Below are positions 17,700 through 62,527 of a stretch of DNA of 64,000 bases, piece by piece. A program made the translations under genes and the position numbers. The DNA comes from an uncultured Caldilineales bacterium (GTDB lineage Bacteria; Chloroflexota; Anaerolineae; J102). The stretch is from positions 1,272 to 65,271 of the forward strand of contig CAZMDD010000144.1 in NCBI GenBank assembly GCA_964565065.1. Direction: 5' to 3'. A model generated the notes under the pieces. The model was not told the origin of the DNA. It worked only from the letters and a program-made list of their open reading frames with translations, and did no database searches. Numbering within the stretch: the stretch's first letter is position 1; each line of letters starts with the position of its first letter.

Positions 17700-17715
17700 C
17701 ATGCACTCTCTTTTT

Positions 17716-17857
17716 GTTACTACTAAGATAGCCCGGCTGGAAACCACTAAGACACGAAGTCGCAAAGGCACAAAGAAAGAAAAAGTTTTGAAATGCTTAG
17801 TGTTCTTCGTGTCTTTGTGCCTTTGTGGTGATTGAAGTCGGGTACGTTAGTAATTAC
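17716..17857 (+). mobile_element. MITE family A copy A1 (142 bp) with imperfect TIRs GTTACTACTAAGATAGCCCGG.../...GGTACGTTAGTAATTAC and 8-bp TSD CTCTTTTT (17708-17715 and 17858-17865)
   Basis: Flanking direct duplication and TIR read directly. Shares >85% identity with five other copies. Confidence 0.8.
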
Positions 17858-17881
17858 CTCTTTTTTAAGATTTCAAACCTT

Positions 17882-18769
17882 ATGGCTTTTCGACCTCTTT
17901 TTACCCGCGACCGTGTTTGGGCGGGCCTGGGCGCTGGCATTCTGCTGCTTTTGGCCTTGCTGATGCTGTTTTGGGCCCGAAACCGGCCCCTGGGCCCGGG
18001 CACAGCCATCCTGGGCGGGCTGGCCTTGCTCATGCTGGGGATGAGTGCGCTGCTCATCTACCGACTGTGGGCGCTGCACACCCTGGACTACTGGGTCCAG
18101 CGCGACGCTATCCACATCCACTGGCTGGGCGAAGAGGCGGTGATTCCGCTGCCTCATGTGCAAGAGATTATTCCCGCCACCCTGGCCTTGGCTCCCGATT
18201 GGTGGCGCTGGCCCCAACAATGGCTGCAAAGCGATGCCGAAAAGCGTGTATTTAGTTACGCTACCCAACCGCCCGAGCAATCGCTGGCCATTGTCACAGC
18301 CGATGAGGTTTATCTGGTTTCACCGCAGCGGCCCCAGGATTTTGTGCAGGCGTATGAGCAAAGGCAGCAATTTGGCCCTGCCCGCTTGCTGAAGCGTGTC
18401 ATTTATCTGGCTCCCTGGCGGCAGCATTGGCTGCTGACTGATCGTCTGGCTCAGGGCGCGCTTTTGGGAGGATTGGTCTTGGGGTGGTTGGTGCTGGGCT
18501 ATGTTATTTGGCGCTATCCGCAATTGCCCGCAACCATCGCCCTGCACATGAACAACCAGGGCATGCCCGATTTACTGAGCCCGCGTCATGCCATCTTTTT
18601 GCTTCCTGGCATTGCTTTGCTGATTGGCTTTTTGAATGCAGCCATTGGATTTGCATTTTACGGGTATCAGCGTTTCCTTTCCTATTTGCTGTGGAGTCTG
18701 TCCTTTCTTTTGCAAATCATCACCTTTTTGGCGGTGGCCAACCTCATCAATTTGGCGGTGAGGGGCTAA
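17882..18769 (+). CDS. Hypothetical membrane protein with bacterial PH-like (DUF304-like) region
   Basis: Two N-terminal TM helices, then YWVQRDAIHIHWLGEEAVIPL, then C-terminal TM helices. Start MAFRPLF at 17882 (the 17825 start lies inside the MITE). Confidence 0.55.
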   Translation: MAFRPLFTRDRVWAGLGAGILLLLALLMLFWARNRPLGPGTAILGGLALLMLGMSALLIYRLWALHTLDYWVQRDAIHIHWLGEEAVIPLPHVQEIIPATLALAPDWWRWPQQWLQSDAEKRVFSYATQPPEQSLAIVTADEVYLVSPQRPQDFVQAYEQRQQFGPARLLKRVIYLAPWRQHWLLTDRLAQGALLGGLVLGWLVLGYVIWRYPQLPATIALHMNNQGMPDLLSPRHAIFLLPGIALLIGFLNAAIGFAFYGYQRFLSYLLWSLSFLLQIITFLAVANLINLAVRG

Positions 18770-18773
18770 CCTG

Positions 18774-19640
18774 ATGATAACACCAGGGTCTTTGTTCATG
18801 TTGGTTACAGGATTTGTGCTGGCTGCGCTGGCGGGCCTGCTGGGCTGGCGCGCGCGTCTGCTCACGCCCGGAGGCGCGTTAGGCGCGACGCTCATCGGAG
18901 GCACGGTTTTTGGTTTTGGCGGTCTGGTGTGGGCGGCAGCGCTCATTAGTTTTTTTGTGCTGAGCAGTTTGATTTCCTTGTTCAGCAATGCTCACAAGGC
19001 CCGCGCTTTAGCCCGGGCTCACAAATCGGGCCCGCGCGATCTGTTGCAAACCCTGGCCAATGGTGGCTTGCCCGCACTCATGGCCCTGGCTGTCGGCGCT
19101 ACCGGGCATAGCTCGCCCTGGTATCCTTATTTCACTTTGGCCTACTTTGGCGCACTGGCCGCGGCTACCGCCGATACCTGGGCCACCGAGCTGGGAATGC
19201 TCTCGGCGCAGCAACCACGGCTCATCACCAGTGGCCGTCCCGTTCCCGCGGGTCTTTCTGGCGGCATCACCGGCGCCGGACTGACAGCCAGTGTTACGGG
19301 CGCAGCCATCATGGCGCTGGCCATTTTCGGATTCATCCAGGGCGCTTCGCTGCTTAGCACGGGCCAATGGTTCCTGCAAGACTGGTTTTTGTTGCTGGTT
19401 TTGCCATTTGGCGGCATGGCAGGTTCATTGGCCGATTCATTTTTGGGCGCAACGCTCCAGCGGTTGTATTATTGCCAGCACTGCCAACAATTTACCGAGC
19501 AATCTACCCATTCTTGCGGCCAGCCTACTCGCATTGTCCACGGATACTCCTGGGTCAACAACGACGTGGTGAACTTTTTCGCTACCCTTGCCGGAGCGCT
19601 GGCTGTCATTCTTGCTTCACTTTCCATTCTAATTTCATGA
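18774..19640 (+). CDS. Integral membrane protein, DUF92/TMEM19-like
   Basis: Multi-TM, Gly/Ala-rich helices. Stop overlaps the next gene's start (ATGA). Confidence 0.55.
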   Translation: MITPGSLFMLVTGFVLAALAGLLGWRARLLTPGGALGATLIGGTVFGFGGLVWAAALISFFVLSSLISLFSNAHKARALARAHKSGPRDLLQTLANGGLPALMALAVGATGHSSPWYPYFTLAYFGALAAATADTWATELGMLSAQQPRLITSGRPVPAGLSGGITGAGLTASVTGAAIMALAIFGFIQGASLLSTGQWFLQDWFLLLVLPFGGMAGSLADSFLGATLQRLYYCQHCQQFTEQSTHSCGQPTRIVHGYSWVNNDVVNFFATLAGALAVILASLSILIS

Positions 19641-20401
19641 ATTCAACAGCCTCATCCTCCCCCGCAGTGCCCTTGCTGAGCATCATCATTCCTGCCTACA
19701 ATGAAGAACATCGTCTGCCTGAGTCGATGCAACAAATTTTGGCTTGGCGGCAGTCTGTGCCTTACGATGTCGAGATTATCATTGTTGAAAATGGCAGCAC
19801 TGATCGTACCACTCAGATTGCCGAAAGTTTTGCTGCTGCCCACAAGGCTGTCCGTGTCATTCACAGCGATAAAGGCAAAGGTGCTGCTGTGCGTGCGGGC
19901 GTCTATGCGGGCACGGGCGAGTTTCTCTTCATCTGCGATTCCGATCTTTCTATGCCCATTGCCGAGGTGGAAAAATTCTTGCCGCCGCAACTTTCAGGCT
20001 ACGATGTGGCCATTGGCAGCCGCGAAGCGCCCGGCGCCCAACGTTTTGGCGAACCCGCCTATCGTCATTTGATGGGGCGCGTTTTCAATGCCATTGTGCG
20101 CATTTTGGCCGTGCCTGGCTTTCAGGATACACAGGCAGGCTTCAAAATGTTCCGTCGCACAGTAGCCCGCGAGATTTTCCAATATCAAACCATCACCGGC
20201 TGGACATTTGATGTCGAAGCGCTGTTCATTGCCCTAAAACTGAATCGGCAGATTGTCGAAGTTCCCATCAACTGGTATTTTGATGAAGACAGCCGGGTAA
20301 ACCCCCTAAAAGACACTTGGCACATGTTCTGGGATGTACTCACCATTCGTTTCAATGATCGTCGCGGCATTTACGATTCGCCGCGGCATCCTGTTGCCTA
20401 A
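19637..20401 (+). CDS. Family 2 glycosyltransferase (polyprenol-phosphate/dolichol-phosphate mannosyltransferase-like)
   Basis: LSIIIPAYNEE...DSD...FDVE motifs of GT2 Dpm1-like enzymes. Confidence 0.75.
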   Translation: MNSTASSSPAVPLLSIIIPAYNEEHRLPESMQQILAWRQSVPYDVEIIIVENGSTDRTTQIAESFAAAHKAVRVIHSDKGKGAAVRAGVYAGTGEFLFICDSDLSMPIAEVEKFLPPQLSGYDVAIGSREAPGAQRFGEPAYRHLMGRVFNAIVRILAVPGFQDTQAGFKMFRRTVAREIFQYQTITGWTFDVEALFIALKLNRQIVEVPINWYFDEDSRVNPLKDTWHMFWDVLTIRFNDRRGIYDSPRHPVA

Positions 20402-20421
20402 CGCTATTTATTGAGGATTTT

Positions 20422-62119: not shown

Positions 62120-62146
62120 CAAAAAATCCCAGCCGTGGGACTGGGA
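62120..62146 (-). terminator. Rho-independent terminator of tRNA-Thr
   Basis: TCCCAG-N7-CTGGGA hairpin, followed on the minus strand by TTTTTT, 6 nt after the tRNA 3' end. Confidence 0.6.
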
Positions 62147-62152
62147 GAGAGG

Positions 62153-62225
62153 AGCCACCCGACGGATTCGAACCGACGACCGACGCATTACGAATGCGTT
62201 GCTCTACCGACTGAGCTAGGGTGGC
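62153..62225 (-). tRNA. tRNA-Thr (anticodon CGU)
   Basis: Reverse complement GCCACCC TA GCTCAGTCGGTAGAGC A ACGCA TTCGTAA TGCGT CGGTC GTCGGTTCGAATCCGTC GGGTGGC T gives a cloverleaf with anticodon CGT. No encoded CCA. Confidence 0.85.
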
Positions 62226-62237
62226 GTAATCAAGGCA

Positions 62238-62266
62238 ATTATACCGATTTGCTTTCTTTCTGACAA
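62238..62266 (-). promoter_or_regulatory. Sigma70-like promoter for tRNA-Thr (TTGTCA-17-TATAAT)
   Basis: Read on the minus strand about 12 nt upstream of the tRNA 5' end. Confidence 0.55.
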
Positions 62267-62285
62267 ATTCTATCAGCTCTTACAA

Positions 62286-62417
62286 GTTACTACTAAGGTA
62301 GCCCGGCTAGAAACCACGAAGACACGAAGCCACAAAGGCACGAAGAAGGAAAAAGTTTTGAAATGCTTAGTGTTTTTGTGCCTTTGTGGTGGTTGAAGTC
62401 GGGACGTTAGTCGTTAC
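62286..62417 (+). mobile_element. MITE family A copy A6 with perfect 8-bp TSD TCTTACAA (62278-62285 and 62418-62425)
   Basis: TIR GTTACTACTAAGGTAGCCCGG.../...GGGACGTTAGTCGTTAC. TSD read directly. Confidence 0.85.
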
Positions 62418-62527
62418 TCTTACAATGCTTTTACACTTTTGTTATGGCTGCTTAAAGTTTGGGGCGCAAACTATGTGTGTCGGACGACAACAATTTTTTT
62501 ATCTCACCTACTCAAGGAGAAACTATC

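What the first reader, a model, noticed from the sequence alone, without database searches (positions are those of the whole stretch)
17708..62425. High-density family of ~135-bp MITEs with TIRs and 8-bp target-site duplications, all on the same strand
Six near-full copies lie at 17716-17857, 24777-24918, 33301-33435, 54499-54631, 58254-58384 and 62286-62417. They share >85% identity. They carry imperfect terminal inverted repeats 5'-GTTAC[G/T]ACTAAGG(T/C)AGCCCGGCT ... AGTCGGGACGTTAGTCGTTAC-3'.

Four are flanked by direct duplications I can read exactly:
- A1: CTCTTTTT/CTCTTTTT.
- A6: TCTTACAA/TCTTACAA.
- A2: AAAAATGC/GAAAATGC.
- A3: AGCATTTG/AGCATTGG.

TIR plus an 8-bp TSD is the hallmark of DDE-transposase-mobilised non-autonomous elements. 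A GTAA-initiated TIR with an 8-bp TSD is reminiscent of the IS66 family (ISL3 and IS256 also give 8 bp), but no transposase is in the window. The interior contains nested palindromes (CACGAAG / CTTCGTG and CCACAAAGGCAC / GTGCCTTTGTGG), so the transcript would fold into a long hairpin.

All six copies are on the + strand even when the neighbouring genes are on the - strand, an orientation bias not expected for random cut-and-paste insertion. One copy per ~10 kb implies hundreds genome-wide. The elements sit at gene ends and provide hairpins, so they may act as terminators or mRNA stabilisers.
Basis: seen in the sequence. Interest (0 to 1): 0.78.

Follow-up and report, generated by a model that had tools for sequence, protein, structure and literature searches.

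The report
MITE family with octamer-repeat hairpin core
The window, from an uncultured Caldilineales (Chloroflexota) bacterium, carries six copies plus one fragment of a real ~135-bp non-autonomous transposon with IS66-like ends and 8-bp target duplications, which is ordinary as a kind of element, but its core is an unexplained 8-nt-repeat hairpin motif that also turns up in many other bacterial phyla.

Summary
The six copies are real and lie at the stated coordinates. Each folds into a long hairpin. The four copies with both ends intact have 8-bp target-site duplications (8/8, 8/8, 7/8, 7/8). Five further copies in related metagenomes have perfect 8-bp duplications. A related element nested inside another, with an uninterrupted paralogue, shows an insertion directly. 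So this is a MITE family.

Its termini (GTAAC…GTTAC) and 8-bp duplication fit the IS66 family. They are closest to ISDge4 of the ISBst12 group (GTAACTGCT…). No transposase was found in the window or in any sequence I could reach.

- Pairwise identity is 69–92%, not >85%.
- A seventh, partial copy lies on the minus strand, so the strand bias (6 of 7) is not significant.
- Two copies (A4, A5) have altered left ends and no duplication.
- No copy looks like a canonical terminator.

New observation: the core is built of CACNAAG/CTTNGTG octamers. The same octamer hairpins occur, without the MITE ends, in at least ten phyla. They are not in Rfam and remain unexplained.

Verdict: a new member of a known kind, with an intriguing core.

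The parts
17716..17857 (+). MITE copy A1 (142 bp). TSD CTCTTTTT at 17708-17715 and 17858-17865. It fills the SurE-DUF1648 spacer.
   Evidence: (155 bits). Conspecific contigs L105, L106, L115 and L116 carry the same insertion.
24777..24918 (+). MITE copy A2 (142 bp). TSD AAAAATGC/GAAAATGC (7/8) at 24769-24776 and 24919-24926. It lies between the CCA/polyA-polymerase gene and trmB.
   Evidence: (157 bits).
33301..33435 (+). MITE copy A3 (135 bp; one right-arm octamer missing). TSD AGCATTTG/AGCATTGG (7/8). It lies between a histidine-kinase gene and prs, both on the minus strand.
   Evidence: (134 bits).
54499..54631 (+). MITE copy A4 (133 bp). It is a hybrid: the right half is the window type, and the left end (GTAACTATTCACG...) resembles another MITE family. 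No TSD. It sits in a divergent spacer upstream of rpiA.
   Evidence: (121 bits).
58254..58384 (+). MITE copy A5 (131 bp). The left terminus carries a 7-nt deletion (GTAAC^GTAGCCC). No TSD. It lies between argG and argJ, both on the minus strand.
   Evidence: (145 bits).
62286..62417 (+). MITE copy A6 (132 bp). TSD TCTTACAA at 62278-62285 and 62418-62425. It lies between tRNA-Thr (minus strand) and a + strand ORF.
   Evidence: 137.5 bits.
6411..6475 (-). Partial copy A7. Only the left TIR and left octamer arm are present, on the opposite strand. On the + strand it reads like the single-arm 'F2' relatives.
   Evidence: I1-I5; 37 bits, HMM positions 1-52.
7407..7592 (+). Related single-arm repeat F2a. 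It consists of a conserved 65-nt module, CACAGAT units, a T run, one CTTNGTG octamer arm, and a GTTAC end.
   Evidence: (D6, D7).
49600..49766 (+). Related single-arm repeat F2b (71% identical to F2a), ending GCTAC.
   Evidence: (weak hit).

Best explanation

Structure. Each element is 131-142 bp and has no coding capacity. It has imperfect terminal inverted repeats of about 23 bp: left GTTACTACTAAGGTAGCCCGGCT, and right, read inward, GTAACGACTAACGTACCCGACT.

Mechanism (inferred). A DDE transposase supplied in trans recognises the ends. It inserts the element through cuts staggered by 8 bp, which gives the 8-bp target-site duplication. Insertions are seen in AT-rich intergenic DNA: the duplicated targets are about 29% G+C, against about 55% for the window.

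Likely transposase (inferred). GTAAC termini combined with an 8-bp duplication fit the IS66 family, probably its single-ORF ISBst12 group. I put this assignment at about 0.55.

Interior. The core is a long imperfect hairpin made of 8-nt units, [N]CAC[N]AAG on the left arm and CTT[N]GTG[N] on the right. Copies differ by gain or loss of whole units. The arms contain no start or stop codons in any frame.

Age and effect. The window copies are old and diverged (69-92% identical; two have damaged left ends). Copies in a related MAG are 94-98% alike, so the family was active there more recently. Effects on the host are probably incidental: a strong hairpin appears in transcripts whichever strand is read, and predicted ORFs are extended into the element.

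Shown: the repeats, TIRs, TSDs, the hairpin, intergenic location, absence from orthologous spacers of relatives, and a nested insertion in a sister family. Inferred: the identity of the transposase, and any regulatory role.
For: - Six full copies and one partial copy are detected independently.
- TIRs are confirmed.
- 8-bp TSDs are found in all four window copies with intact ends. They are perfect in five copies from other assemblies: L019 GACAGAAA, L028 GTTTTAAG, L076 TGTTTTTT, L095 ATTGAATC, L112 GGGGATTT. That is 70 of 72 positions matching. Chance of >=7/8 at one site is about 5e-4.
- Sister families in relatives have the same tips (GTAAC[Y][R]CTAA[S]GTA) and near-perfect 8-bp TSDs. These are L108 8148-8298 (7/8 read in full) and L013/L047/L081 (visible flanking bases match).
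- Nested insertion: an X-type element sits inside a Y-type element at L110 17985-18278. The uninterrupted Y copy at L110 2613-2755 shows the empty site, with CTTTTT(T) duplicated around the insert.
- The orthologous SurE-DUF1648 spacer in relatives at 72-83% protein identity lacks the element.
- All copies are intergenic, next to housekeeping genes.
- Hairpin energies are far below those of shuffles.
- Published IS66-family features match. IRs start GTAAGCG or GTAACCG with 8-bp DRs (PMC11946415; PMC12888890). ISDge4 has TIR GTAACTGCTCAGCA with an 8-bp DR (PMC12898284).
- Contigs of independent assemblies end inside the element, as expected for a multi-copy repeat (L107, L009, L044, L059).
Against: - No autonomous element with matching ends was found. 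There is none among about 50 window ORFs. There is none in about 1 Mb of fetched loci. A metagenome scan for the left TIR not followed by the MITE core returned only another MITE copy.
- No precise empty site for a window-type copy was recovered. The relatives are too diverged for intergenic alignment.
- Canonical IS66 ends read GTAAGCG, whereas here they read GTAAC, and the window-type left tip reads GTTAC.
- Two of the six copies lack TSDs.
Confidence: 0.85

Rival explanations
1. The octamer-repeat hairpin is the primary unit. It would be a widespread, possibly functional or independently spreading hairpin module, and the Caldilineales MITEs are merely that module sitting between IS ends. 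Under this view the high copy number and retention reflect a property of the hairpin, not only transposase parasitism.
For: - The same CACNAAG/CTTNGTG hairpins, bounded by AAACCAC...GTGGTT, occur without the GTAAC ends in many phyla.
- Four different MITE families in Chloroflexota (window type, X, Y, Z) differ in subterminal sequence, yet all contain octamer arrays.
- Tandem CACNAAG units are 30-fold more frequent than the 58 permuted controls in unrelated parts of the fetched loci.
- The variable N positions of the two arms are complementary only 42-60% of the time, so the motif itself is conserved, not just the pairing.
Against: - The solitary hairpins have no TSDs and share no neighbouring gene.
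- No binding protein or function is known.
- The four MITE families could simply share a common ancestor that already contained the core.
- The loci were ascertained with the motif itself.
- A G-U strand-asymmetry test for RNA-level selection was null.
Confidence: 0.3
2. The elements are REPINs (paired REP sequences) mobilised by a RAYT tyrosine transposase, not by a DDE enzyme.
For: - They form hairpins and are high-copy and extragenic.
- A GTAG tetranucleotide sits at positions 13-16 of the left arm.
Against: - Nine copies have 8-bp target duplications at the outer GTWAC tips. HUH/RAYT-type single-strand transposition does not produce such duplications (established knowledge).
- GTAG is not conserved on the right arm (GTAC there) or in the sister families.
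- No Y1/RAYT gene was found among the window ORFs.
Confidence: 0.02
3. The copies are a family of cis-acting RNA elements (intrinsic terminators, mRNA stabilisers or sRNA genes). They would be kept by selection at gene ends, and mobility would be secondary.
For: - The hairpins are very stable.
- Four copies lie between co-directional genes (A1, A2, A3, A5).
- Solitary octamer hairpins in other phyla often begin 0-20 nt after a stop codon, and about 40% are followed by a T run.
Against: - No MITE copy passes the terminator-like scan.
- A4 and A6 are in divergent spacers.
- Orientation is unrelated to the direction of flanking genes.
- There is no Rfam match.
- No promoter-like site falls within the elements.
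Confidence: 0.1

Closest known systems
IS66-family insertion sequences, especially the single-ORF ISBst12 group (e.g. ISDge4 of Deinococcus geothermalis), and MITEs derived from IS66-family elements in Pseudomonas
   Same: - The ends start with GTAA.
- The target duplication is 8 bp.
- The ISDge4 tip GTAACTGCTCAGCA matches the sister-MITE tip GTAACTGCTAA at 10 of 11 positions (PMC12898284).
- Some IS66 members have GTAAC ends (GTAACCGTCCGGGCA; PMC12888890).
- An IS66-derived MITE has been reported in Pseudomonas (PMC12888890).
   Different: - No cognate transposase was found here.
- The canonical IS66 IR is GTAAGCG.
- The left tip of the window type is GTTAC.
- The host phylum is Chloroflexota.
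- The interior is an octamer-repeat hairpin that is not described for IS66 elements.
Classical bacterial MITEs (Correia/NEMIS of Neisseria, RUP of Streptococcus pneumoniae, Nezha of cyanobacteria; reviewed in PMC3184786 and PMC3733652)
   Same: They are 70-300 bp and non-coding, with TIRs of 15-30 bp and TSDs. They are present in many intergenic copies, can fold into long hairpins, and can be co-transcribed with neighbouring genes.
   Different: The end sequences and TSD length differ (Correia duplicates TA). None has been described with an 8-nt periodic core. This family is in an uncultured Chloroflexota lineage.
REP/REPIN elements mobilised by RAYTs
   Same: They are extragenic, hairpin-forming, high in copy number and non-autonomous.
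   Different: REPINs have no terminal inverted repeats recognised by a DDE enzyme and make no target duplication. Here, 8-bp duplications are present at nine insertions.

Membership tests
[quoted passage not shown] | Short (<~300 bp) and without coding capacity | tested here: met
   The elements are 131-142 bp. No gene fits inside.
[quoted passage not shown] | Terminal inverted repeats | tested here: met
   The ungapped TIR is 15-18 nt and 72-87% complementary. With one gap it extends to about 23 nt.
[quoted passage not shown] | Target-site duplication of fixed length, different at every site | tested here: met
   8 bp in nine copies with intact ends, 70 of 72 positions identical. A4 and A5, which have damaged left ends, have none.
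[quoted passage not shown] | Multiple dispersed copies | tested here: met
   Seven copies in 64 kb. Further copies occur in two MAGs and one metagenome contig.
[quoted passage not shown] | Evidence of insertion (filled versus empty site) | tested here: inconclusive
   A sister family in L110 shows a nested insertion with a paralogous empty site. The orthologous spacer in relatives lacks the window-type copy, but it is too diverged to give an exact empty site.
IS66 family (as the source of the transposase) | Inverted repeats beginning GTAA | tested here: met
   The right end of the window type and both ends of sister families X, Y and Z read GTAAC. The left end of the window type reads GTTAC. 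The criterion is taken from PMC11946415.
IS66 family (as the source of the transposase) | 8-bp direct repeats at insertion sites | tested here: met
   The criterion is taken from PMC11946415 and PMC12898284.
IS66 family (as the source of the transposase) | A full-length element with the same ends that encodes a DDE_Tnp_IS66 transposase in the same genome | tested here: inconclusive
   None was found in the window (Pfam), in the fetched loci, or in one metagenome scan. The complete genomes could not be searched.
REPIN / RAYT system | Insertion without target duplication; GTAG- or CGTC-tagged palindromes; an associated RAYT gene | tested here: not met
   8-bp duplications are present. GTAG occurs only inside the left arm and is not conserved. 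No Y1 transposase is present among the window ORFs.
Intrinsic terminator | G+C-rich stem followed directly by a T run on the transcribed strand | tested here: not met
   No MITE copy is among the terminator-like sites.
Any Rfam RNA family | Covariance-model match | tested here: not met
   Only tRNAs reach the gathering score in the window and in 19 diverse loci. With permissive E-values only chance-level hits appear.

The most novel reading that the evidence does not exclude
The MITE core may belong to an undescribed, pan-bacterial class of hairpins. These are built from 8-nt units (CACNAAG on a T-free arm, CTTNGTG on an A-free arm, bounded by AAACCAC...GTGGTT). The motif itself, not only the base pairing, would be maintained across at least ten phyla. 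That would imply either a conserved sequence-specific partner (a protein that binds the repeat array on RNA or DNA) or a repeat-generating and spreading mechanism of its own. The Chloroflexota MITEs would then be vehicles for it.
Probability: 0.3. Interest if true: 0.7.

Novelty: new member of a known kind. Interest (0 to 1): 0.42.

Why it matters
As a MITE, this element documents an abundant family of non-autonomous transposons with IS66-like ends in Caldilineales/Anaerolineae. I found no paper describing MITEs in this phylum in the searches I ran.

It has practical consequences:
- It breaks assemblies.
- Because its arms lack stop codons, gene callers start neighbouring genes inside it. Here this affects the DUF1648 and trmB ORFs.

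The wider question concerns the octamer-repeat core. If one specific 8-nt repeat hairpin really is kept in Chloroflexota, Cyanobacteria, Acidobacteriota, Planctomycetota, Bacteroidota, Proteobacteria and other phyla, then something sequence-specific and widespread must act on it. That would be worth a dedicated census and a search for the binding partner.

Tried and rejected
- **Autonomous partner.** I searched the window and all fetched loci for the TIRs and for degenerate tips. I also looked for GTNAC...GTNAC pairs 0.9-3.5 kb apart with matching 8-bp flanks. I scanned metagenome contigs for the left TIR not followed by the MITE core. Only MITE copies turned up.\n- **ISDge4 sequence.** I tried to fetch the Deinococcus geothermalis plasmids to obtain it, but they are not in the plasmid collection.\n- **Exact empty site.** I looked through SurE homologues. 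Conspecific contigs all carry the insertion, and relatives at 72-83% protein identity are too diverged.\n- **Literature by sequence string.** I searched for CACGAAG and related strings, and separately for small dispersed repeats. Nothing relevant was found.\n- **Other sequence collections.** Rfam gave nothing at gathering or permissive thresholds. The plasmid collection gave no blastn match. Viral contigs gave only 2 hits, about the chance level.\n- **Shared neighbouring gene.** Octamer hairpins across phyla share none.\n- **Naive ORF-based location classes.** These were unreliable because the hairpins are stop-free.\n- **G-U asymmetry test for RNA-level selection.** The result was null: 32 versus 41.\n- **Rejected readings.** REPIN/RAYT (TSDs are present), integron attC (the ends do not fit RYYYAAC...GTTRRRY), and assembly artefact (the same insertion appears in four independent assemblies).
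Full report
**1. The observation**

The repeat finder recovers a repeat family at the stated coordinates. A MAFFT alignment and an nhmmer profile built from the copies give six + strand members:
- 17716-17857
- 24777-24918
- 33301-33435
- 54499-54631
- 58254-58384
- 62286-62417

They score 121-157 bits on the + strand and only 24-36 bits on the reverse strand. Orientation is therefore well defined, even though the element is nearly palindromic.

The core 19-mer is absent from 100 shuffles of the window. Each copy folds into one long hairpin of -44 to -55 kcal/mol, with z-scores of -3.5 to -7.9. The terminal inverted repeats are found by tool.

Three statements need correction.
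- Pairwise identity is 69-92%, not >85%.
- A seventh, partial copy lies on the minus strand at 6411-6475. It has only the left TIR and left arm.
- A4 has a different left end, and A5 has a 7-nt deletion in its left end. Neither has a duplication.

**2. Organism and gene context**

SurE homologues and their source names place the window in Caldilineales/Chloroflexota. The same locus, including copy A1, is present in four independent assemblies (NCBI GCA_054029655.1, ENA, two JGI contigs). This excludes an assembly artefact.

About 50 window ORFs were scanned against Pfam. They are housekeeping genes: PBP1A, SurE, CCA/polyA polymerase, TrmB, ClpB, RadA-like, Prs, SHMT, an ABC transporter, RpiA, ArgJ, ArgG, Udk and others. 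None is a transposase or integrase.

All copies are intergenic.
- A1 and A2 lie between + strand genes.
- A3 and A5 lie between minus-strand genes.
- A4 and A6 lie in divergent spacers.

Orientation therefore does not follow transcription.

**3. It is a mobile element**

All four window copies with intact ends have 8-bp duplications. Five more copies of the same family have perfect ones. These come from a Caldilineales MAG (CAZYSY01), an Anaerolineae MAG (WFTO01) and a JGI metagenome contig. The duplicated 8-mers are GACAGAAA, GTTTTAAG, TGTTTTTT, ATTGAATC and GGGGATTT. In total 70 of 72 positions match, against a chance of about 5e-4 per site for >=7/8. The duplicated targets are about 29% G+C in a 55% G+C window.

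Relatives at 72-74% SurE identity carry sister families with the same tips (GTAAC[Y][R]CTAA[S]GTA) and near-perfect 8-bp duplications (7/8 where the flanks are read in full).

In L110, one sister element is inserted inside another. The uninterrupted paralogue elsewhere on the same contig gives the empty site, with CTTTTT(T) duplicated around the insert.

The orthologous SurE-DUF1648 spacer in relatives lacks the window element. It holds a HicAB pair, other repeats, or a 100-nt spacer instead.

Copies in CAZYSY01 are 94-98% identical, while the window copies are older.

**4. Which transposase?**

An 8-bp duplication with ends starting GTAA is the published signature of the IS66 family (PMC11946415).
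- Some members have GTAAC ends (PMC12888890).
- ISDge4 of the single-ORF ISBst12 group has GTAACTGCTCAGCA / GTGACTACTCAGCA and an 8-bp repeat (PMC12898284).
- The sister MITEs read GTAACTGCTAA..., and the window type reads GTAACGACTAA / GTTACTACTAA.

This is a good match but not proof. I could not find the full-length element.

**5. Claims not supported**

- **Orientation bias.** Six + and one partial - give a two-sided p of about 0.13. The window offers no replichore information. GC skew here simply tracks gene strand.
- **Terminator or stabiliser role.** No copy is among the terminator-like sites, and two copies are on the promoter side of genes.
- **'Hundreds genome-wide'.** This is an extrapolation. 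The indirect support is that several assemblies break inside the element.

**6. The interior**

The arms are arrays of 8-nt units, [N]CAC[N]AAG on the left and CTT[N]GTG[N] on the right (34 matches against 0.3 expected). The left arm has no T and the right arm has no A, so no frame has a start or stop codon. Indels between copies are whole units.

One consequence is that gene callers start the DUF1648 gene and the trmB ORF inside the element.

**7. The octamer motif outside this lineage**

I scanned one genome per species for the 19-mer AAACCACNARGACACGAAG. Counting the two viral-contig hits as well, there are 111 matches, and 81 of them have a further unit and/or the complementary array nearby.

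The hits come from Chloroflexota, Acidobacteriota, Cyanobacteriota, Planctomycetota, Bacteroidota, Alpha-, Gamma- and Zetaproteobacteria, Desulfobacterota, Verrucomicrobiota, Armatimonadota and Heliobacteriaceae. Many are on contigs of 0.1-6.9 Mb, and some are in isolates (Thiohalophilus DSM 16326, Methylobacter tundripaludum).

Only the Caldilineales/Anaerolineae hits carry the GTAAC ends. Elsewhere the hairpin stands alone, usually just after a stop codon. It has no TSD and no shared neighbouring gene. It matches no Rfam family.

Further points:
- In the unmasked remainder of those loci, tandem CACNAAG occurs 30 times, against <=1 for 58 permuted units.
- The variable positions of the two arms are complementary only 42-60% of the time. 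The motif, not just the pairing, is therefore conserved.
- In cyanobacteria, single arms occur without a partner.
- A G-U asymmetry test for RNA-level selection was null.

I cannot explain this motif. It is recorded as the main open question.

**8. Verdict**

This is a real and well-behaved MITE family with IS66-like ends. It is a new member of a known kind in a little-studied phylum. The strand bias and the terminator idea do not. The octamer-repeat core and its cross-phylum distribution are the part that deserves follow-up.

Noticed in passing
window 17745-17827 and the equivalent cores of all copies; loci L001-L104: The MITE core is an array of CACNAAG/CTTNGTG octamers. The same octamer hairpins (AAACCAC...GTGGTT) occur without MITE ends in at least ten bacterial phyla. 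They are usually just downstream of stop codons. They are not in Rfam and share no neighbouring gene.
   Followed up: partly
window 7407-7592 and 49600-49766 (also 6380-6475; L059 3418-3488): A second repeat family ('F2', 71% identical). It has a conserved 65-nt module (TTAAGTAGAYGCACAYTTGAAAYTTGAG...), then CACAGAT units, a T run, a single CTTNGTG arm and a GTTAC/GCTAC end. The two full copies lie in convergent spacers. The left module recurs in a Caldilineales MAG. No Rfam match.
   Followed up: partly
window 40504-40625 and 42063-42184: A 122-nt direct duplication (88% identical). The 3' end of the M42 peptidase gene is copied into the wecG-glyA spacer. Two conspecific assemblies end their contigs at about this point.
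   Followed up: partly
window 17825-17884 and 24886-~25100: The MITE arms have no stop codons, so predicted ORFs start inside the element. The DUF1648 gene is called as 314 aa from 17825, against 293-295 aa in relatives, and another caller starts it at ATG 17885. The trmB ORF starts inside A2, although its Pfam domain begins at residue 102.
   Followed up: partly
L110 17985-18278 and 2613-2755 (same arrangement in L111): One MITE is nested inside another MITE of a sister family. An uninterrupted paralogue shows the empty site and the duplicated CTTTTT(T).
   Followed up: yes
L019 4692-4825: This copy of the window-type MITE has its central (loop) segment inverted relative to its ends, as expected from recombination between the inverted arms.
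   Followed up: no
window 5800-7700: A stretch richer in A+T. Its ORFs have low GC3 (0.34-0.38) and no Pfam match. It contains the partial MITE copy and one F2 copy, so it may be an inserted or decaying region.
   Followed up: no
window 8000-64000: The sign of GC skew runs opposite to gene strand. It is negative over the + strand genes at 13-31 kb and positive over the minus-strand genes at 32-62 kb. The sign change near 32 kb should therefore not be read as an origin or terminus.
   Followed up: no
L038 (Thiohalophilus thiocyanatoxydans DSM 16326) 1-460, 5900-6200, 7100-7450: At least five octamer hairpins lie within 8 kb. Several lie next to GTAG-tagged REP-like palindromes (GTAGGGTGCGT..ACGCACC).
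   Followed up: no
L010 1050-1200; L050 5076-5120; L099 7680-7720; L056 5112-5200; L065 2696-2730: Other period-8 tandem arrays with different units (GGGGCAGA, GTCATTCC/GAATGACA, CACAGAGA) occur in the same genomes. Octamer periodicity is therefore broader than the CACNAAG unit.
   Followed up: no
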